The notes beneath the pieces are model-generated. The model saw nothing but the letters and a program-made list of their open reading frames with translations, made no database searches and was not told the origin of the DNA. A program made the position numbers and the translations under genes. DNA of 21,388 nt from a virus (taxonomy: Duplodnaviria; Heunggongvirae; Uroviricota; Caudoviricetes). Where the stretch lies: IMG/VR virus record IMGVR_UViG_3300029080_000073; one strand, 5' to 3'. Below are positions 2,768-19,749 of this stretch, piece after piece. The first letter of the stretch is position 1; every line of letters begins with the position of its first letter.

Positions 2768-3332
2768 CGTCCTCCGGACGGCTCATGCTTTGAGCATGTA
2801 CTTCAATACCAAATGCTTCACGCAATGGCTCCGTGCGTTGCGCCATCAGTCTGGCTGGACGAAAAACTTCCCACGCCTGTTTCTCTGTTGTGGCCCCGGA
2901 ATACACTTCAGCGCCAAATTCATCATCGCAGGCAAACATATACAGACCAACGCCAGCAGACATTGCTGATTTCCCGTTTTTACGGGGTATTTCGTTGTAA
3001 GCCTCGCGAAATCGACGCAGACCGCTCTTTTTTCTCACCCACCCAAACACAACACAGATACAGAACAACTGCCAGGGTTCAAGCGTAATGGGCATCCGCT
3101 TAAATGCCCACTCCCCTTTGGTGTGTGGCAAAAGCTGGATAAATTTCGCCACCCGCTCAGCTTTATCTTTATCAAATTTAAACGGATAGTTTTTTTTAAC
3201 TGAATTTTCCAGGTCATCAAGGTGACGCTGGCAGGCTAGAACGACATAACGGCAAACCTGAATTTTTCCGCGAACCACGTCACGTGCATACTGATTTGCG
3301 GCATTAACGTTCACGTAATTTTTTCGTGTCAT
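2658..3332 (-). pseudogene. terminase large subunit, N-terminal ATPase fragment (truncated)
   Basis: Follows the small terminase gene with overlapping stop/start; Walker A-like PRKNGKS present; only 224 aa with a non-protein-like tail ([11 protein letters not shown]...), no nuclease domain. Confidence 0.6.
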
Positions 3333-7226: not shown

Positions 7227-7781
7227 CTAAGCGTCAGTAAAAGAAAATGCATCTCGCATCAGTGGATACAGAATAAACTCAGCTATTCTCAGCCACATAT
7301 CTATACGATTGCGGCATGTTGCATAGCACCACTCAGGGTGAACCTCATTCAACAATTCAGCCATTTTGCGTTTACTCATCCCCCGCCCTTCGTACCTTTG
7401 CCGCAGGATATCAATCAATCCAGGATAACGTGCAAGCGCTTTACTTATCACCCCATCAATGCGTAACGCCTCTGCATCAGTACAGTGAGACAACCAGCTC
7501 TTCTGTCTGCCAGCGATCATCTCTCGCAAGAATGCTTCCAGCTCTGGTTTATCAATCCCTGACTCCCTGATTCTACGCAGGGCTTCATTGATTGCGGTTT
7601 TTGTCAGTTTTTTGGATGCCAGCAACTGATTGAACATATTTCCTGGTTTGCCACCACCTATATACGACCAACGCCCCCACATCCGTAATTTCCCCTGGAT
7701 CCAGACGACTTCCAGCGTTTTTAGACGTAAATGCTCGCCGCTTTTGCCTGTAATTTCCGGATATATCATATTTACGATCAC
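7227..7781 (-). CDS. late-gene antitermination protein Q-like
   Basis: 184-aa ORF directly after RusA and before the terminator and lysis cassette, the DLP12/82 arrangement; assignment is positional plus weak recall. Confidence 0.5.
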   Translation of the reverse strand: MIVNMIYPEITGKSGEHLRLKTLEVVWIQGKLRMWGRWSYIGGGKPGNMFNQLLASKKLTKTAINEALRRIRESGIDKPELEAFLREMIAGRQKSWLSHCTDAEALRIDGVISKALARYPGLIDILRQRYEGRGMSKRKMAELLNEVHPEWCYATCRNRIDMWLRIAEFILYPLMRDAFSFTDA

Positions 7782-9646: not shown

Positions 9647-9802
9647 TTACTCCTCAGGTTCGTAAGCTGTGAAGACAGCGACCTCCGTCTGGCCGGTTCG
9701 GATTCGTACCTCGCAGAGGTCTTTCCTCGTTACCAGTGCCGTCACTATGACGGTTAAACAGATGACGATCAGGGCGATTAACATCGCCTTTTGCTGCTTC
9801 AT
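9647..9802 (-). CDS. hok: Hok/Gef family type I toxin (51 aa)
   Basis: MKQQKAMLIALIVICLTVIVTALVTRKDLCEVRIRTGQTEVAVFTAYEPEE matches the Hok/Gef family throughout (TM helix plus conserved C-terminal tail). Confidence 0.9.
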   Translation of the reverse strand: MKQQKAMLIALIVICLTVIVTALVTRKDLCEVRIRTGQTEVAVFTAYEPEE

Positions 9803-9859
9803 AGCCTGCTTCTCCTTGCCTTTCGGCACGTAAGAGGCTAACCTACATTTGTGAGACAT
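9647..9859 (-). CDS. mok: mok-like overlapping reading frame
   Basis: In-frame upstream extension (MSHKCRLASYVPKGKEKQA) of the hok ORF, as in hok/mok/sok loci. Confidence 0.55.
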   Translation of the reverse strand: MSHKCRLASYVPKGKEKQAMKQQKAMLIALIVICLTVIVTALVTRKDLCEVRIRTGQTEVAVFTAYEPEE

Positions 9860-9975
9860 AGATTGGGCCTCAGATTAATGTTAAGCGTCTTGCAGGACGC
9901 GTAATGTTAACTGGGGCTTTTCTCTATCTGCCTTTTGGTGTTCATGCCTGAGACAGATAGCCTCAAGCACCCGCA
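9860..9975 (+). ncRNA. sok: hok mRNA leader / predicted Sok antisense RNA region (exact ends not mapped)
   Basis: Region upstream of mok carries GCUUGAGGCU-like 5' end and local hairpins expected of the hok leader; Sok would lie on the opposite strand here. Confidence 0.3.
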
Positions 9976-12943: not shown

Positions 12944-13369
12944 TCAATGCGCCACCACGGCATTTCCCGCCGGACCACCACGATTCATCTGATCGAACAA
13001 CACGATCGCTGCCGCAACAAACTCATCGATATCTTTCACCAGGCGCTCCCGTCGCTCGACAAGCTCCCGGTGATATTCCGAACTGTGGCTGCGCATTCGG
13101 GCCACCAGTGGAGGCGGCATTGCTTTTTCGATCGCCGGTAACAACGCCTGAATTTTTTTAACCGCATCAGGGGTGTCTTTTTCTACCCAGCGGAAAATTT
13201 TCTGGGTATTACGAGACAGGGCTTCCGGATGGCTGTCGTCATACAGTTCAGGAAACGTCATACCCAACTCAAAATAAGCCTGGGTTATTCCAGCTACTGG
13301 AACTTTTTCGCCATCAGGACGCGCCCAGGCATTCATCGCCATGCGGATGTGTTCATGCTTGATTTTCAT
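12944..13369 (-). CDS. YdaT-like protein (CII-position)
   Basis: N-terminus MKIKHEHI and size (141 aa) as remembered for Rac YdaT; directly downstream of the Cro-like gene. Confidence 0.55.
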   Translation of the reverse strand: MKIKHEHIRMAMNAWARPDGEKVPVAGITQAYFELGMTFPELYDDSHPEALSRNTQKIFRWVEKDTPDAVKKIQALLPAIEKAMPPPLVARMRSHSSEYHRELVERRERLVKDIDEFVAAAIVLFDQMNRGGPAGNAVVAH

Positions 13370-13625
13370 GAATCAACTCCGGTGCATTTGATGTGTTAAC
13401 CTTGAATCCAACAGGTAAACCGTCGGTTGGGTTAGGATAAATATCAGGGCGAATTTCATGCGGGGTAACTTCCCACTTCATTAGCTGACATAACGGAATT
13501 ACCTGCTTTGGGGGAACGTCAAAGCTAAACCATTGCCAAACTGTCTGTTGAGCGACCCCCATATAACGACCTATTTCAGCTTGAGTGTATTTCTGCCTAA
13601 TTTTTTCGCGAGTGCTATCTAGCAT
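13353..13625 (-). CDS. Cro/YdaS-like HTH regulator
   Basis: HTH segment QAEIGRYMGVAQQTVWQW; divergent from the repressor gene across the operator. Confidence 0.6.
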   Translation of the reverse strand: MLDSTREKIRQKYTQAEIGRYMGVAQQTVWQWFSFDVPPKQVIPLCQLMKWEVTPHEIRPDIYPNPTDGLPVGFKVNTSNAPELIHENQA

Positions 13626-13661
13626 TTTGCTCTCCTCTAAAAAACTATAAGCAAAACCTAC

Positions 13662-13696
13662 AATAAAAAACTGTACACAATCAACAGTTTTTTATT
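13662..13696. promoter_or_regulatory. operator 1: perfect 13-bp inverted repeat with 9-bp spacer in the divergent promoter region
   Basis: AATAAAAAACTGT-acacaatca-ACAGTTTTTTATT between the Cro-like and repressor genes. Confidence 0.6.
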
Positions 13697-13734
13697 GTGA
13701 TGCTTTTAACAGTATTTACCTGTAAAATTGAATA

Positions 13735-14136
13735 ATGATGAACGCCCTAGAAGTATCTATGTACAGAATCAGCAAGCTTCTTCAGGAAACTGGATGGAGC
13801 CAGGCTGAGCTTGCCCGTAGAATTGGTGTGACACAACAAACTGTTCAACAATGGGTCAGCGGTAAGGCTACACCTAAAGCCTCAAGTTTGGATAAACTGG
13901 TTGAGGTTACAGGGCATCCATTGCATTGGTTTTTATTGCCTCCTGAAGAGGGGGAGCAAATTTTCACCCCTGACACGATGAAAATTGGTCCTCGTCAACG
14001 CGAACTGCTCCAGGCTTTTAGTGCGTTTCCAGAGGAAGACCAAGAAAAAATGCTTCAAGAAATCAAAGACAAGAAAAAATCAATGGAAGAAACCATTGCC
14101 CGGTGGTTGGCGGCACAAAAAAGCCGCCGGGCGTGA
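13735..14136 (+). CDS. DicA/cI-like XRE-family HTH repressor
   Basis: HTH (SQAELARRIGVTQQTVQQWVSG) plus C-terminal region laid out as in DicA; ATG sits about 7 bp after a TAAAAT -10-like hexamer, suggesting a leaderless mRNA. Confidence 0.7.
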   Translation: MMNALEVSMYRISKLLQETGWSQAELARRIGVTQQTVQQWVSGKATPKASSLDKLVEVTGHPLHWFLLPPEEGEQIFTPDTMKIGPRQRELLQAFSAFPEEDQEKMLQEIKDKKKSMEETIARWLAAQKSRRA

Positions 14137-14163: not shown

Positions 14164-14355
14164 ATGAGTACAGCCCTTTCTCCGATAGTTTCAGAATTCG
14201 AAACTACCGAACAAGAAAACAGTTACAACGAATGGTTACGCGCTAAAGTGGCGTCAAGCCTTGCAGACCCTCGTCCCTCAATTCCACATGATGAGGTAAT
14301 GGCTGAAATGGAGAATCTTATTGCTCAAATTGCTGTAACTAACAGGAGCGAGTAA
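14164..14355 (+). CDS. type II antitoxin (ParD/RelB-like)
   Basis: 63-aa ORF whose stop overlaps the toxin start (ATGA), directly upstream of a ParE/RelE-fold toxin. Confidence 0.55.
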   Translation: MSTALSPIVSEFETTEQENSYNEWLRAKVASSLADPRPSIPHDEVMAEMENLIAQIAVTNRSE

Positions 14356-14642
14356 TGTTACCCATTTTGTGGCTACCATCTGCTCGCGATGATTTGCGTC
14401 AGATCGTAGCCTATATTGCTAAGGAAAATATTCCTGCAGCACGCAGACTAAAAATACGGATTGAAACGTCTGTTTTAGCCCTCTCTGAGCATCCATATCT
14501 ATATCCGCCAAGTGATCGAGTATCCGGTTTGCGGGAAATTGTGGTTCACCCTAATTATATCGTTTTGTACCGAGTAGCAGCTTCAAGCATTGAAATTGCA
14601 AATATTGTGCATGCCCGCCGACAATTTCCCTTCCCTATCTGA
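14355..14642 (+). CDS. type II toxin, ParE/RelE superfamily
   Basis: 95 aa; DDLRQIVAYIAKENIPAARRL ... GLREIVVHPNYIVLYRV ... IANIVHARR matches the ParE/RelE pattern. Confidence 0.7.
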   Translation: MLPILWLPSARDDLRQIVAYIAKENIPAARRLKIRIETSVLALSEHPYLYPPSDRVSGLREIVVHPNYIVLYRVAASSIEIANIVHARRQFPFPI

Positions 14643-14655
14643 ACTGAACAATTTT

Positions 14656-14688
14656 CACACCCCCTCATTCGAGGGGGTTTTTTTGTCC
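14656..14688 (+). terminator. intrinsic terminator after the toxin gene
   Basis: Stem cccctc / gaggggg with 4-nt loop followed by a 7-T run. Confidence 0.65.
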
Positions 14689-14695
14689 AACACAA

Positions 14696-14738
14696 CAATT
14701 AAAAACTGTTGACACAAAACAGTTTTTAATTGTAGATT
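14696..14738 (+). promoter_or_regulatory. operator 2 overlapping a sigma70-like promoter for the ydfA-dicB operon
   Basis: Perfect 14-bp inverted repeat CAATTAAAAACTGT-tgacacaaa-ACAGTTTTTAATTG; TTGACA (14709..14714) inside it, 17-18 bp before a TAGATT-like -10. Confidence 0.55.
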
Positions 14739-15470: not shown

Positions 15471-16076
15471 ATGGAATTTAAAGATTTACCAAAAGAAATC
15501 CAGATAATTGCTGCAACGACACTCGGTGATAGTCTGGTGAAAATTGACCCGGCATACACCAAAAAAGAAACCATCGATAATATGGTTCGTAATGTGCGCA
15601 ATGCTTTTTCAGGGCTATATGGTTCTGATAATCAAAAACAGGAAAACGATATTGATGAACGGGTAATTTCTGTTTGCCTGAATGGTCATGTTATTTCAGC
15701 AATCAGAACAGAAACGGCAACTGCTTTTGATTATCTCTGCATGATTCAGAGTCTTGCCGATGTTCTGTTGAAATCAAAAGATTTAGAAAACGATGCAAAT
15801 TTACAGGGGCGCACAATAGCACATCCATATGCACATATTTTAAGCTCTGTGGATGTTAAAAATAATACCCTGCAAGTTGCTTTCGAACATTCACCGCAAG
15901 AGTTAAAAACGAAAAAAGACGATGCGGATAAAAATAATAACGATGCACCTGATTTGTTTATTATCAGCTCAAAGCTGCTGGAAATCATGAAGAGCGAGCT
16001 TGAAAAACACAACATCAAGCCCACTTCTGTAAATTTACGATGGGTAATGAGGATTATTGACGCTTCTCTGTCATAA
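15471..16076 (+). CDS. hypothetical protein (201 aa), AT-rich insertion in the dicB operon
   Basis: ORF track; AATAATGG-type RBS context; markedly AT-rich codon usage versus neighbours; no recognisable motif. Confidence 0.5.
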   Translation: MEFKDLPKEIQIIAATTLGDSLVKIDPAYTKKETIDNMVRNVRNAFSGLYGSDNQKQENDIDERVISVCLNGHVISAIRTETATAFDYLCMIQSLADVLLKSKDLENDANLQGRTIAHPYAHILSSVDVKNNTLQVAFEHSPQELKTKKDDADKNNNDAPDLFIISSKLLEIMKSELEKHNIKPTSVNLRWVMRIIDASLS

Positions 16077-16569
16077 GCTTCTTATCCAGGAATGCTTCAA
16101 ATGTATTGTAAATGGCGTCAATTTCCCCCATTTGCTCGGTAGCAAGAGAAATGGCGTGAGATAGTGAAAGGGGCACCTAGCAATGGGCGTTAAAGGTTTC
16201 CACGGCCAGGCGCATAAGAAACATTACTTTTTCTTCTTGTGTCATAAATTTCACCCTCCTGAGGGTTGGTAATTAAGGAGTTCTCCACGGGTGAGGTGGA
16301 GTGTGTGCGCCGGACACGGGTGAGCATCCGGCACTGACAGTTTACAGAAAGGATATATCCCTGAAAAGTCAGGGCATAACGCGAAAGCGCACGGCGAGGT
16401 AGTTGGTTCATAGATAGCCTGTCGTTAAATTTTCGTCGACCGTGCGCTTCCGGTTGTGGCACTCCGCGAAATGGCGCGGCGGTAAGTATGGCGGGGTTAT
16501 TCCTTCCCCGTTGAGGACACCGGGTTGTCAGGTTGACCATACGCCTGAGTGACAACTCCGCTACAACAA

Positions 16570-16631
16570 CCCATGTTGATTACCTTTTGGCGGGTATTCG
16601 TTTTGTTTTTCCCGTGATACCCGCCCCTTTT
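16570..16631 (+). ncRNA. dicF: DicF-like small RNA (terminator-hairpin 3' end)
   Basis: Between ydfC and dicB as in Qin; 9-bp stem GGCGGGTAT / ATACCCGCC then CCTTTT; 5' end not determined. Confidence 0.4.
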
Positions 16632-16635
16632 AAAG

Positions 16636-16791
16636 TGAATTTTGTGATGCGGTGAATGCGGCTCAGCGCACGCGGAACAGTTAAAACAAGCGGTCTTTTA
16701 CTTGCGTAACAGACATCAACTAACAATCCGGCGTTAATTGTTGACTGGTTAACGTCACCTGGAGGCACCAGGCACCGCATCACAAAATTCA
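16636..16791. repeat. 19-bp long-range inverted repeat pair flanking 118 bp
   Basis: TGAATTTTGTGATGCGGTG (16636..16654) and CACCGCATCACAAAATTCA (16773..16791); inner palindrome CGTTAA-N11-TTAACG. Confidence 0.5.
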
Positions 16792-16808
16792 TTGTTGAGG
16801 ACGCGATA

Positions 16809-16997
16809 ATGGAAACGTTATTACCAAACGTTAATACGTCTGAAGGTTGTTTTGAAATTGGTGTCACTATCAGTAACCCAGTATTTACTGAAGATGCCAT
16901 TAACAAGAGAAAACAAGAACGGGAGCTATTAAATAAAATATGCATTGTTTCAATGCTGGCCCGTTTACGCCTGATGCAAAAAGGATGCTGGCAATGA
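16809..16997 (+). CDS. dicB: cell division inhibitor DicB
   Basis: 62 aa; sequence METLLPNVNTSEGCFEIGVTISNPVFTEDAINKRKQERELLNKICIVSMLARLRLM... recognised as DicB. Confidence 0.8.
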   Translation: METLLPNVNTSEGCFEIGVTISNPVFTEDAINKRKQERELLNKICIVSMLARLRLMQKGCWQ

Positions 16998-17277: not shown

Positions 17278-19749
17278 ATGAGTAAAGTCTTTATTTGCGC
17301 CGCCATTCCGGACGAACAGGCAATAAAGGAAGAAGGTGCAGTCGCTGTAGCCACTGCCATTGAAGCCGGCGACGAACGTCGCGCCCGTGCCAAATTTACC
17401 TGGCAATTCCTGGAGCAATATCCGGCTGCTCAGGACTGCGCTTATAAATTTCTTGTCTGCGAGGATAAACCCGGCATGCCCCGCCCTGCCATCGACTCTT
17501 GGGATGCTGAATATATGCAGGAAAACCGCTGGGATGAGGAGTCAGCTTCCTTTGTCCCGGTTGAGACTGAATCAGATCCGATGAACGTCACTTTTGACAA
17601 GCTGGCCCCTGAAGTACAGAACGCTGTCATGGTTAAGTTCGACACATGTGAAAACATCACCGTTGATATGGTGATTAGTGCACAGGAACTGTTGCAGGAA
17701 GACATGGCAACATTCGACGGACATATCGTTGAAGCGTTGATGAAAATGCCAGAAGTTAACGCCATGTATCCGGAGCTTAAGCTGCATGCCATCGGGTGGG
17801 TTAAGCATAAATGTAAGCCTGGAGCTAAATGGCCCGAAATTCAGGCAGAGATGCGCATCTGGAAAAAACGTCGCGAAGGTGAACGCAAGGAAACCGGAAA
17901 ATACACGTCTGCTGCTGATCTCGTCCGCGCCAGAGCCAATCAACAGAACACTGAAAATTCAACAGGAAAAATCAGCCCGGTCATTGCTGCCACTCATCGC
18001 GAATACAAGCAGACATGGAAAACACTGGATGATGAACTGGCCTACGCTCTGTGGCCTGGTGACATTGATGCCGGAAACATTGACGGCAGCATCCATCGCT
18101 GGGCAAAAAATGAAGTTATCAACAACGACCGCGAAGACTGGAAGCGTATCTCAGCATCAATGCGCAAACAGCCTGATGCCCTTCGCTACGACCGCCAGAC
18201 TATTTTTGGCCTTGTCCGTGAGCGTCCGATCGACATTCACAAAGACCCTGTGGCACTGAACAAATACATTACTGAATACCTGACTACAAAGGGCGTGTTT
18301 GAAGATGAAGGAACAAATCAGAGCGCAACTGATACTCTCTCGTCGCCAGTACCAGAAACTGATGCAGTGGAAACGGCAATTCCGGACAACGAAAAAACCG
18401 AATGCAAAGTGGAAGTCGAACCATCTGTAGAGCGTGAGGGGCCGTTCTACTTCCTCTTCACCGACAAGGATGGCGAAAAATACGGTCGCGCAAACAAACT
18501 TTCTGGTCTGGATAAGGCGCTGTCTGCTGGGGCTACTGAAATCACGAAAGAAGAATATTTCGCCCGCAAAAACGGTACATACTCAGGTTCACAACAAAAT
18601 ACTGGTGCATCTGACACGACCGCACAACCAGGGTCAGTAAAAGTTACCGCTGACGAAGTAAACAAAATTATGCAGGCAGCCAATATCAGCCAGCCTGACG
18701 CCGATGAACTGCTTGCAGTATCACGTGGTGAATTTGTTGAAGGGATTAGCGACCCGAATGATCCGAAATGGGTTAAGGGGATCCAGACCCGCGATTCTGT
18801 GAACCAGAACCAGCAAGAAACGGAACAGAACGACCAGAAAGCGGAACAAAACAGCCCAAATACGCAACAAAACGAGCCAGAAACGAAACAACCTGAACCA
18901 GTAGTGCAACAGGAACCGGAAAAGATCTGCACCGCCTGCGGTCATAGCGGTGGCGGCAACTGCCCTGATTGTGGTGCGGTGATGGGTGACGCAACATACC
19001 AGGAAATATTCGATGGAGAGAATCAGCCTGAAGTTCAGGAAAATGATCCGGAGGAAATGGAAGGCACTGCGCATCAGCACAAGGAGAACACTGGCGGCAA
19101 TCAGCATCATGCCAGCGATAGTGAAACTGGCGAGGCGTCAGATCCCTTAATTAAGGCGAACGGTCATCATAATCTCACATCCACCAGCAGAGCGGGGATT
19201 CATCTGATGATCGACCTTGAAACCATGGGAAAAAATCCCGATGCCCCGATTATCTCAATAGGTGCAATATTTTTCGATCCGCAAACCGGAGATATGGGAC
19301 CGGAATTTAGTAAGACTATCGATCTGGAAACTGCTGGCGGAGTCATTGATCGGGACACCATTAAATGGTGGCTTAAGCAATCACGCGAAGCGCAATCTGC
19401 CATTATGACCGATGAAATCCCGTTAGATGATGCACTGTTACAATTGCGGGAATTTATCGACGAAAACTCCGGTGAATTTTTTGTTCAGGTCTGGGGAAAT
19501 GGAGCCAACTTCGACAACACGATTTTGCGCCGTTCATACGAACGGCAGGGGATCCCCTGCCCGTGGCGTTACTACAACGATCGCGATGTACGCACAATCG
19601 TTGAGCTGGGGAAAGCCATAGACTTCGATGCCAGAACGGCTATTCCATTCGAAGGTGAGCGCCATAATGCACTTGATGACGCCCGTTACCAGGCAAAATA
19701 CGTTTCAGCTATCTGGCAAAAACTGATCCCGAGTCAGGCTGATTCTTAA
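17278..19749 (+). CDS. 823-aa protein: YdfE/RecE-N-like region, zinc ribbon, C-terminal DEDDh (DnaQ-like) 3'-5' exonuclease domain
   Basis: C-terminal exonuclease motifs MIDLETMG, WGNGANFDNTIL and HNALDDARYQ; C-x2-C-x7-C-x2-C ribbon (CTACGHSGGGNCPDC); Q/E/N-rich linker. Confidence 0.7.
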   Translation: MSKVFICAAIPDEQAIKEEGAVAVATAIEAGDERRARAKFTWQFLEQYPAAQDCAYKFLVCEDKPGMPRPAIDSWDAEYMQENRWDEESASFVPVETESDPMNVTFDKLAPEVQNAVMVKFDTCENITVDMVISAQELLQEDMATFDGHIVEALMKMPEVNAMYPELKLHAIGWVKHKCKPGAKWPEIQAEMRIWKKRREGERKETGKYTSAADLVRARANQQNTENSTGKISPVIAATHREYKQTWKTLDDELAYALWPGDIDAGNIDGSIHRWAKNEVINNDREDWKRISASMRKQPDALRYDRQTIFGLVRERPIDIHKDPVALNKYITEYLTTKGVFEDEGTNQSATDTLSSPVPETDAVETAIPDNEKTECKVEVEPSVEREGPFYFLFTDKDGEKYGRANKLSGLDKALSAGATEITKEEYFARKNGTYSGSQQNTGASDTTAQPGSVKVTADEVNKIMQAANISQPDADELLAVSRGEFVEGISDPNDPKWVKGIQTRDSVNQNQQETEQNDQKAEQNSPNTQQNEPETKQPEPVVQQEPEKICTACGHSGGGNCPDCGAVMGDATYQEIFDGENQPEVQENDPEEMEGTAHQHKENTGGNQHHASDSETGEASDPLIKANGHHNLTSTSRAGIHLMIDLETMGKNPDAPIISIGAIFFDPQTGDMGPEFSKTIDLETAGGVIDRDTIKWWLKQSREAQSAIMTDEIPLDDALLQLREFIDENSGEFFVQVWGNGANFDNTILRRSYERQGIPCPWRYYNDRDVRTIVELGKAIDFDARTAIPFEGERHNALDDARYQAKYVSAIWQKLIPSQADS

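What the first reader, a model, noticed from the sequence alone, without database searches (positions are those of the whole stretch)
16570..16631. DicF-like sRNA hairpin conserved at the expected operon position
A 9-bp GC stem and U-run lie about 180 bp upstream of dicB, matching the DicF 3' terminator architecture. The upstream sequence differs from the canonical DicF seed as I recall it, so the target range (ftsZ and others) might differ.
Basis: partly seen in the sequence, partly recalled or inferred. Interest (0 to 1): 0.45.

Follow-up and report, generated by a model that had tools for sequence, protein, structure and literature searches.

The report
Divergent DicF-slot hairpin upstream of dicB
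The hairpin is real and sits exactly where the prophage small RNA DicF lies in E. coli K-12, but it is a rare, undescribed allele that keeps only DicF's terminator base and has lost both DicF regions shown experimentally to pair with targets, so it probably does not block cell division the way DicF does.

Summary
GGCGGGTAT (16589-16597) pairs with ATACCCGCC (16617-16625). CC + TTTT follows, and the dicB start codon lies 183 nt downstream; dicB is 95% identical to K-12 DicB.

The flanks are 90-100% identical to the K-12 ydfC-dicF-dicB spacer, but the dicF slot itself (16561-16625) is only 40-60% identical.

Rfam's DicF model finds nothing here even at E<=10, whereas the K-12 control scores 76.7 bits. 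The 5' seed UUUCUGGUGAC is absent. The loop with the anti-Shine-Dalgarno CUCCG is replaced by a U-rich loop. Predicted binding to the ftsZ leader drops from -16.1 kcal/mol (K-12 DicF) to -2.4 to -5.0.

Flank-anchored scans show at least seven alleles in this slot, all sharing UUUGGCGG...CCGCCC-U4-5. The window's type ("B") occurs in 157 of 5,426 complete E. coli genomes, against 3,974 for canonical DicF, and in one deposited phage. I found no annotation or publication of it.

Best reading: a divergent dicF allele that acts as a partial intrinsic terminator and releases a processed small RNA of changed, unknown specificity. A purely cis-acting role is not excluded. This is a new variant of a known kind, of moderate interest.

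The parts
16589..16625 (+). Terminator-type hairpin. The 10+2 bp stem is GGCGGGUAUU-CG / CG-U-GAUACCCGCC, with a 12-nt U-rich loop UUUUGUUUUUCC. It occupies the dicF slot.
   Evidence: The hairpin stretch including the flanking UUU and U-tail (46 nt) folds at -16.8 kcal/mol. It is the top hit (19.2 bits, E about 3e-4) of a covariance model built only from other alleles of the slot.
16626..16631 (+). 3' tail CC + UUUU. It is the likely termination point and the 3' end of the short RNA.
   Evidence: K-12 has C + UUUUU at the aligned position. Other type-B subtypes have CCC + UUUUU.
16570..16588 (+). 5' module CCCAUGUUGAUUACC + UUUU, replacing the canonical DicF seed UUUCUGGUGACGUUU. It is nearly invariant among type-B loci and is the candidate single-stranded seed or Hfq site.
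   Evidence: The same 'CCAUG' module is also found joined to canonical and to C/D-type hairpins.
16564..16578 (+). Small predicted 5-bp hairpin, CAACA/UGUUG, just upstream. It overlaps the start of the 5' module.
   Evidence: prediction only.
16264..16560 (+). Conserved, structured leader. It is 90-100% identical to the K-12 ydfC-dicF spacer, which in K-12 holds the RNase III site that makes the 190-nt DicF precursor.
   Evidence: Fold z = -3.8. Processing in K-12 is from PMC10448788.
16634..16793 (+). Downstream structure closed by a 21-bp long-range helix (16634-16654 / 16773-16793). It is the counterpart of the RNase III stem that gives the 72-nt DicF form. It also scores as a sub-threshold STnc100 match.
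   Evidence: z = -5.6. STnc100 34.6 bits against a gathering score of 47; K-12 scores 34.4. The two substitutions versus K-12 turn G.U/U.G wobbles into G-C/C-G pairs.
16809..16997 (+). dicB, the cell-division inhibitor gene downstream of the hairpin.
   Evidence: 95% identical to K-12 DicB; Pfam DicB, 136 bits.
14695..14738 (+). Probable operon promoter, TTGACA-18-TAGATT, embedded in a perfect 16-bp-arm palindrome that is the probable repressor operator. It would drive ydfA-ydfB-ydfC-orf201-leader-hairpin-dicB.
   Evidence: The gene order matches K-12 dicBp-ydfABC-dicF-dicB.

Best explanation
The hairpin is the dicF-slot element of a lambdoid prophage's repressor-controlled early-left (dicB) operon. 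It is a divergent allele, here called type B, of the locus that encodes DicF in K-12.

Proposed mechanism:
- Transcription from the promoter at 14709-14738 runs through ydfA, ydfB, ydfC, orf201 and a conserved structured leader (inferred).
- The hairpin plus its U-run stops part of the polymerases, as the DicF terminator does in K-12 (inferred by homology).
- Read-through transcripts continue into dicB and can be cut by RNase III in the conserved 21-bp helix just downstream (helix shown, cleavage inferred).
- The 5' end would be made by RNase III in the leader and by RNase E near 16575-16585 (inferred).
- The product would be a roughly 50-60 nt RNA, plus a roughly 180-nt precursor. It would consist of a short U-rich 5' tail, the hairpin and a U-tail, which is the usual Hfq-binding layout.

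It lacks both experimentally defined DicF targeting regions. It is therefore not expected to repress ftsZ, or xylR and pykA, in the DicF manner. If it acts in trans, its targets are different and unknown. The most conserved candidate seed is CCCAUGUUGAUUACCUUUU.
For: Position and homology of context:
- The flanks are 90-100% identical to K-12 on both sides of a 40-60% identical island at 16561-16625.
- dicB follows, and the operon layout is the same as in K-12 and other prophages.

Shared terminator module:
- All slot alleles keep UUU-GG(C/U)GG...CC(G/A)CC-C-U4-5 and a stable hairpin of -10.7 to -22.6 kcal/mol.
- Two-sided compensatory changes occur: C-G to U-A at pair 3 in L023/L088, and U.G, C-G, A-U or G-C at pair 6.
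- A model built without type B finds the window hairpin as the best hit in 21 kb.

Processing context kept:
- The 21-bp downstream helix is present, and the leader is conserved and structured.
- The K-12 processing scheme is described in PMC10448788 and PMC9438474.

Loss of DicF specificity:
- There is no Rfam DicF hit at E<=10, against 76.7 bits for K-12.
- The seed is deleted.
- Ensemble binding to ftsZ -60..+30 is -2.4 to -5.0 kcal/mol for type B, against -16.1 for K-12 DicF and -12.8 for allele F, which has the canonical hairpin. The MFE gain is 0.0 to -3.4 against -8.1.
- PMC5069750 reports mutational tests of predicted pairings in which the 3' region of DicF pairs with the ftsZ RBS and the 5' end with xylR.

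Maintenance:
- Type B is in 157 of 5,426 complete genomes and about 60 IMG/VR contigs, with the stem nearly invariant and the loop variable.
- It is also in one deposited phage.
Against: - There is no expression data, so no transcript end has been observed.
- The U-run is only four in this subtype, which is weak for termination and for Hfq binding.
- The loop varies among type-B subtypes, and no candidate target was found. This fits an element with no trans-acting role.
- Conservation of the 5' module could simply reflect recent common ancestry of these prophages.
- The binding energies are predictions. My mononucleotide shuffles destroy the sRNA's own hairpin and so are a poor null.
- The RNase E site is guessed.
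Confidence: 0.6

Rival explanations
1. The element is purely cis-acting. The hairpin is only a partial intrinsic terminator or processing signal that meters read-through into dicB (or kil). Whatever short RNA is released has no trans targets.
For: - The only features shared by all alleles are the stem base and the U-run.
- The type-B loop is the most variable part.
- Both known DicF pairing regions are gone.
- No recurrent complementary site was found in 1.7 Mb of prophage loci.
- In K-12 a ydfABC-dicF transcript ends at this terminator (PMC10448788).
Against: - The canonical allele at the same position is a proven trans-acting Hfq-dependent sRNA (PMC5069750).
- The UUU immediately 5' of the stem and the 19-nt 5' module are conserved across type-B loci. 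A bare terminator would not need them.
- This rival does not exclude a terminator role; that role is part of the best explanation too.
Confidence: 0.3
2. It is a functional DicF that still represses ftsZ, and perhaps other DicF targets, through a shifted or alternative pairing.
For: - The locus and terminator are the same, and a residual CCGUGA motif is shared with the DicF loop.
- dicB, the partner division inhibitor, is intact.
Against: - No Rfam hit.
- The anti-SD CUCCG is changed to UCCCG and is partly buried in the stem.
- Other type-B subtypes have CCCAUGA or CCCUUGUGA at that place.
- Predicted binding to the ftsZ leader is the weakest of all alleles.
- The 5' UGGUGA that pairs at ftsZ +20..+25 in the K-12 prediction is absent.
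Confidence: 0.06
3. It is a decaying remnant of dicF or a chance inverted repeat, with no function.
For: - A single 9-bp inverted repeat is not rare in 21 kb.
- The U-run is shortened to four.
- A few type-B loci carry stem-breaking singletons: L086, L132, L144/L163 and L166.
Against: - The hairpin is kept at -16.8 to -19.7 kcal/mol in all common subtypes while the loop length changes.
- The U-to-C change at 16598 in other subtypes turns a G.U pair into G-C.
- It is present in 157 genomes, and in a deposited phage where the module is even duplicated.
Confidence: 0.04

Closest known systems
DicF sRNA of the Qin prophage, E. coli K-12 (Rfam RF00039)
   Same: - It occupies the same slot between the ydfC-side leader and dicB, with flanks 90-100% identical.
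- It has the same terminator base: UUUGGCGG...CCGCCC followed by a U-run.
- It has the same downstream RNase III-type helix.
   Different: - The 27-nt interior of the hairpin is not alignable.
- The 5' seed UUUCUGGUGAC is missing.
- It gets no score from the Rfam model, against 76.7 bits for K-12.
- Predicted ftsZ pairing is lost.
- The U-run is 4 instead of 5.
Other alleles of the same slot found here: F (L023/L088), C (L010), D (L043/L115), G (L066), E (L019)
   Same: - All lie between the same flanks and share the stem base and U-run.
- Type B shares its 'CCAUG' 5' module with D, F and G.
   Different: - F, C, D and G are still seen by the Rfam DicF model at 58.9, 43.5, 38.8 and 37.8 bits. 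B and E are not.
- The type-B hairpin interior is unique to type B.
Prophage-encoded sRNA families with strain-level sequence variants: PasA/PasC and PasD/STnc100 (bioRxiv 10.64898/2026.05.13.724894)
   Same: They are lambdoid-prophage sRNAs restricted to Escherichia/Shigella. They occur as several sequence variants whose 5' parts diverge while the terminators persist.
   Different: The PasA/C/D genes lie near the Q antiterminator and lysis genes (PasB within phage structural genes), not in the dicB operon. The paper does not mention DicF or dicB, and its text holds no type-B sequence.
3'-UTR or intra-operon derived Hfq sRNAs such as SdhX, SroC and CpxQ (PMC9438474)
   Same: They are released from a longer mRNA by termination plus RNase E processing. 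In SdhX the sequence outside a short seed evolves quickly.
   Different: Those have a defined conserved seed and known targets. Here neither is known.

Membership tests
DicF RNA (Rfam RF00039) | Scores at or above the family's gathering score (48 bits) with the Rfam covariance model | tested here: not met
   There is no DicF match in the window at gathering score, nor at E<=10 on 16080-16830. The positive control, K-12, scores 76.7 bits. Type-B loci L003, L126, L128 and L179 give no hit either.
DicF RNA (Rfam RF00039) | Lies in the early-left operon of a lambdoid prophage, between the ydfABC side and dicB | tested here: met
   The flanks are 90-100% identical to the K-12 spacer. dicB is confirmed. 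The operon layout matches.
DicF RNA (Rfam RF00039) | 3' stem-loop on a GGCGG/CCGCC base followed by a U-run (Rho-independent terminator) | tested here: met
   The model built from non-B alleles hits 16586-16631 at 19.2 bits, E about 3e-4, through exactly these positions. The U-run is 4 rather than 5.
DicF RNA (Rfam RF00039) | 5' single-stranded region UUUCUGGUGAC..., which PMC5069750 showed to pair with xylR | tested here: not met
   In alignment A1 this stretch is gapped or replaced by CCCAUGUUGAUUACC.
DicF RNA (Rfam RF00039) | Loop and 3' region complementary to the ftsZ ribosome-binding site (CUCCG against CGGAG, CUG.CCGCC against GGCGACAG) | tested here: not met
   Ensemble binding energy is -2.4 to -5.0 kcal/mol, against -16.1 for K-12. 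The MFE gain is 0.0 to -3.4 against -8.1. In the predicted dimer the type-B hairpin stays closed and the RBS is untouched.
DicF RNA (Rfam RF00039) | Flanked 3' by a long helix that RNase III cuts, giving the 72-nt form, and preceded by the leader with the RNase III site of the 190-nt precursor | tested here: met
   The 21-bp helix 16634-16654/16773-16793 is present. The leader is 90-100% identical to K-12. Cleavage itself was not tested.
DicF RNA (Rfam RF00039) | Accumulates as a stable small Hfq-bound RNA and inhibits cell division when expressed | not testable with these tools
   This needs Northern blotting or RNA-seq, Hfq co-immunoprecipitation and a filamentation assay in a type-B strain.
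Rho-independent (intrinsic) terminator | G+C-rich stem-loop immediately followed by a U-rich tract | tested here: inconclusive
   The stem is stable: the 46-nt hairpin stretch with its flanking U's folds at -16.8 kcal/mol. However, the loop is 12 nt and the tract is only UUUU after CC. The consensus scan did not list it. The homologous K-12 hairpin is a documented terminator (PMC10448788, PMC9438474).
STnc100 (Rfam RF02076), for the adjoining structure 16638-16786 | Scores at or above the gathering score of 47 bits | tested here: not met
   The score is 34.6 bits. K-12 scores 34.4, and related loci score 29.5-38.9. It is a relative at best and is not the hairpin in question.

The most novel reading that the evidence does not exclude
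The dicF slot may be a recombination-shuffled sRNA cassette. Between invariant processing flanks, lambdoid prophages exchange 5' modules (the UUUCUGGUGAC type or the CCAUG type) and hairpin/loop modules (canonical, B, C/D, E, G). This would produce a family of sRNAs with different target sets. On that reading, type B is a functional member that no longer touches ftsZ and regulates other, still unknown, host or phage mRNAs. DicF would then be only the best-known allele of a larger family that current Rfam models miss.
Probability: 0.3. Interest if true: 0.6.

Novelty: new variant of a known kind. Interest (0 to 1): 0.4.

Why it matters
DicF is a textbook prophage sRNA that links prophage derepression to host cell division, sugar metabolism and, in EHEC, virulence. 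Annotation and comparative studies treat dicF as a single sequence (>99% identical copies in PMC5069750).

This finding shows that the locus is polymorphic:
- About 3% of slot copies in complete E. coli genomes (222 places against 7,244) carry an allele that Rfam cannot see.
- That allele lacks both known pairing regions while keeping the terminator and the processing frame.

Two consequences follow:
- Strains scored as 'dicB operon present' may not have DicF activity.
- The allelic series is a natural seed-swap experiment. It can be used to separate what the hairpin does in cis (metering dicB or kil expression) from what the RNA does in trans, and possibly to find new targets.

Tried and rejected
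- **Rfam at gathering score and at E<=10:** no DicF hit. The only neighbour is a sub-threshold STnc100 match.
- **Genome-contig scan for the type-B 5' arm (18-mer):** 53 hits, all in unrelated taxa. That is the order expected by chance (about 35 by my arithmetic), and none was enterobacterial. The species-representative genomes therefore say nothing beyond E. coli.
- **RNAduplex alone, and duplex_subopt with accessibility terms, against ftsZ:** uninformative. Long loop-rich duplexes dominate and exceed the window used for unpaired probabilities. I replaced them with cofold MFE gain and ensemble dimer energies. Mononucleotide shuffles are a poor null there, because they destroy the sRNA's own hairpin.
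- **Search for targets of the conserved 5' module:** no extra site in the window beyond one 3-mismatch match, which is within chance. In 1.7 Mb of fetched prophage loci there were 39 10-mer contexts, about the number expected by chance, and none recurrent. A genome-wide scan of E. coli 5' UTRs was not possible with the available data.
- **Literature:** no paper in the library holds the type-B sequence or discusses DicF alleles. The Pas sRNA preprint concerns other loci. Melson & Kendall 2019 is not held.
- **MAFFT alignment of hairpins (A2, A3):** it puts the alleles in different registers, so I did not use the count of structure pairs. Compensatory pairs were read directly from the sequences and folds.
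- **Coding reading rejected:** the ORFs over the hairpin are a 40-aa TTG ORF at 16533-16655 (+) and a 121-aa ORF antisense to dicB. They cross a slot that varies by insertions and deletions among alleles.

Full report
**1. The observation**

The window reads CCCATGTTGATTACC TTTT GGCGGGTATTCG TTTTGTTTTTCC CG T GATACCCGCC CC TTTT AAAG at 16570-16635. The inverted-repeat search lists GGCGGGTAT 16589-16597 / ATACCCGCC 16617-16625 as a perfect 9-bp pair. RNAfold extends it to 10+2 bp, and the 81-nt stretch folds at -19.8 kcal/mol with z = -2.8.

The U-run is four (16628-16631). The next ORF, 16809-16997, is DicB: Pfam DicB at 136 bits and 59 of 62 residues identical to K-12 DicB.

A 9-bp inverted repeat alone is not unusual in 21 kb, and the simple terminator scan skipped it. 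The case for significance rests on comparison with other genomes.

**2. Context**

The surrounding genes are:

| Coordinates | Feature |
|---|---|
| 13353-13625 (-) | Cro-like gene |
| 13735-14136 (+) | DicA-like repressor |
| 14164-14642 | RelB/ParE pair |
| 14659-14678 | Terminator |
| 14709-14738 | Promoter TTGACA-18-TAGATT inside a perfect palindrome |
| from 14915 | ydfA (DUF1391), ydfB, ydfC |
| 15471-16076 | 201-aa ORF |
| about 545 nt | Non-coding stretch containing the hairpin |
| 16809-16997 | dicB |
| following | DUF1482 gene |
| 17278-19749 | 823-aa exonuclease |

This is the dicA-dicBp-ydfABC-dicF-dicB-ydfD layout of Qin and of intact lambdoid prophages.

**3. Comparison with K-12**

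The non-coding stretch aligns with the K-12 ydfC-dicB spacer. In 30-column windows, identity is as follows:

| Window coordinates | Identity to K-12 |
|---|---|
| 16263-16560 | 90-100% |
| 16561-16625 (the dicF slot) | 40-60% |
| 16626-16685 | 93-97% |
| 16686-16730 | 27-40% |
| up to dicB | 97-100% |

In the slot, K-12 has UUUCUGGUGACGUUUGGCGGUAUCAGUUUUACUCCGUGACUGCUCUGCCGCCCUUUUU. The window has ...UUACCUUUUGGCGGGUAUUCGUUUUGUUUUUCCCGUGAUACCCGCCCCUUUU. Shared are UUUGGCGG, a GUUUU, CCGUGA and CCGCCC plus U's. Missing are CUGGUGACG and the loop ACUCCGUGACUGCUCUG.

**4. Membership in DicF**

Rfam's DicF model gives nothing in the window at gathering score, or at E<=10 when only 751 nt are searched. 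The K-12 locus scores 76.7 bits under the same settings.

PMC5069750 reports mutational tests of predicted pairings: the 3' region of DicF pairs with the ftsZ RBS, and the 5' end pairs with xylR. Both regions are the ones replaced here.

Predicted ensemble binding free energies to ftsZ -60..+30:

| Allele | Binding energy (kcal/mol) |
|---|---|
| K-12 DicF | -16.1 |
| F (canonical hairpin, other 5' end) | -12.8 |
| G, D, C, E | -9.0 to -6.5 |
| Four type-B versions | -2.4 to -5.0 |

In the type-B dimers the hairpin stays closed and the RBS is untouched. MFE gains tell the same story: -8.1 against 0.0 to -3.4. These are predictions, and the shuffles are a weak null, but the ranking is clear.

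**5. The slot is polymorphic**

An IMG/VR scan anchored on the conserved flanks (GGTTGACCATACGC ... Together with the window and two E. coli genome loci (L001, L002), these gave 41 distinct slot sequences. They fall into at least seven alleles:

| Allele | Loci | Description |
|---|---|---|
| A | most loci | Canonical |
| B | window type | CCAUG-type 5' module plus the type-B hairpin |
| C | L010 | Canonical seed, different hairpin |
| D | L043/L115 | CCAUG-type 5' module plus the C-like hairpin |
| E | L019 | Canonical seed, 6-bp hairpin |
| F | L023/L088 | CCAUG-type 5' module plus canonical hairpin with GGUGG/CCACC |
| G | L066 | Longer 5' part, canonical-like hairpin |

Rfam DicF scores fall along this series: 76.7 (A), 58.9 (F), 43.5 (C), 38.8 (D), 37.8 (G), and none for B or E.

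All alleles keep UUU before the stem (UUC in E), a GG(C/U)GG / CC(G/A)CC base and C-U4-5. All fold stably. Pair 3 shows C-G to U-A, and pair 6 shows U.G, C-G, A-U and G-C.

A covariance model built from the non-B hairpins alone finds 16586-16631 as the best hit in the whole window, on both strands. The score is 19.2 bits with a rough E of about 3e-4. It aligns only the base and the tail and skips the 27-nt interior.

The 5' modules and hairpin modules occur in several combinations. This suggests exchange within the roughly 60-nt gene.

**6. Frequency and spread of type B**

- The exact 63-mer is in 25 of 5,426 complete E. coli genomes.
- The type as a whole (>=80% of 67 nt) is in 157 genomes at 222 places. 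The equivalent canonical segment is in 3,974 genomes at 7,244 places.
- IMG/VR holds about 60 type-B contigs in several subtypes. The 5' module and stem are nearly invariant, but the loop varies in U count and in CCCGUGA / CCCAUGA / CCCUUGUGA.
- The U at 16598 is C in most subtypes, which turns a G.U pair into G-C.
- Type B is followed by dicB in 52 of 59 informative loci, by kil in 3 and by neither in 4, much like the canonical allele.
- Among deposited phages only one record has it, Actinobacillus phage vB_Apl-pPE4. There it is unannotated and tandemly duplicated, upstream of kil.
- No species-representative genome outside E. coli showed it.
- No paper in the library contains the sequence or discusses DicF alleles.

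**7. Processing frame**

Immediately after the hairpin, a 21-bp helix (16634-16654 / 16773-16793) closes a 160-nt structure; the fold of 16520-16815 has z = -5.6. It corresponds to the helix whose RNase III cleavage gives the 72-nt DicF form (PMC5069750, PMC9438474). The two differences from K-12 convert tandem wobbles into Watson-Crick pairs.

The leader upstream is nearly identical to K-12 and is structured, with z = -3.8. In K-12 it carries the RNase III site of the 190-nt precursor, and RNase E makes the 53-nt form (PMC10448788).

The cis framework for making a small RNA is therefore intact. Only the cargo differs.

**8. Interpretation**

I am most confident, at about 0.95, that this is the positional homologue, an allele, of dicF.

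The most likely mechanism, at about 0.6, is a partial intrinsic terminator that also releases a processed small RNA with the usual Hfq-type layout. That RNA would lack DicF's ftsZ and xylR specificities.

A purely cis-acting role is the main rival, at about 0.3, and is compatible with the variable loop and the absence of any candidate target. Retained ftsZ control, decay and chance are each unlikely.

**9. Verdict**

It is a new variant of a known kind. It is of moderate interest, mainly because it exposes an unrecognised allelic series at a classic sRNA locus.

Noticed in passing
window 16264-16560: A roughly 300-nt non-coding leader upstream of the hairpin is 90-100% identical to the K-12 ydfC-dicF spacer and folds much better than shuffles (z = -3.8). 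That is far more conserved than the sRNA slot it precedes. In K-12 this region carries the RNase III site of the 190-nt DicF precursor, but I know of no other assigned function.
   Followed up: partly
window 16634-16793: A structure closed by a 21-bp long-range helix matches Rfam STnc100 below threshold: 34.6 bits against a gathering score of 47. K-12 scores the same. Its apical part (16686-16730) is a second divergence island, only 27-40% identical to K-12.
   Followed up: partly
window 9797-9972 (-): A full-length sok antitoxin RNA of a hok/sok type I toxin-antitoxin system (Rfam, 120 bits).
   Followed up: no
window 13660-13698 and 14695-14733: There are two near-identical perfect palindromes, ACAAT(A/T)AAAAACTGT(T).... 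One lies between the divergent Cro-like and DicA-like genes. The other overlaps the -35 box of the early-left promoter (TTGACA-18-TAGATT, 14709-14738). They are probable repressor operators.
   Followed up: partly
window 14164-14642: A RelB-like antitoxin and a ParE/RelE-family toxin, followed by a strong terminator at 14659-14678. They are inserted between the repressor gene and the early-left promoter, in the position of lambda rexAB.
   Followed up: partly
window about 16054-16265 (-): A minus-strand small gene with a good ribosome-binding site (AGGAGGGTGAAATTT-ATG at about 16245) lies between orf201 and the leader. Strain TD225-C4 annotates a 63-aa protein there. In the window the frame appears to stop after about 22 codons.
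   Followed up: no
loci L043 (4732-5215), L066 (894-1359), L179 (16-438): In these prophage contigs the DicF slot and the STnc100-like structure are followed by isrK and a C4 antisense RNA, both above Rfam gathering scores, instead of dicB. The leader-slot-stem module is therefore reused in front of different cargo.
   Followed up: no
locus L238 (Actinobacillus phage vB_Apl-pPE4, PP818812.1) about 2900-3100: The type-B module, a unit of about 93 nt including its flanks, is tandemly duplicated and sits upstream of kil rather than dicB. The phage otherwise looks like an E. coli lambdoid phage, so the stated host is surprising.
   Followed up: partly
loci L023, L088, L010, L119, L043, L115, L019, L066: 5' modules (UUUCUGGUGA type or CCAUG type) and hairpin modules (canonical, C/D, E, G) occur in mixed combinations. 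This suggests recombination inside the roughly 60-nt sRNA gene.
   Followed up: partly
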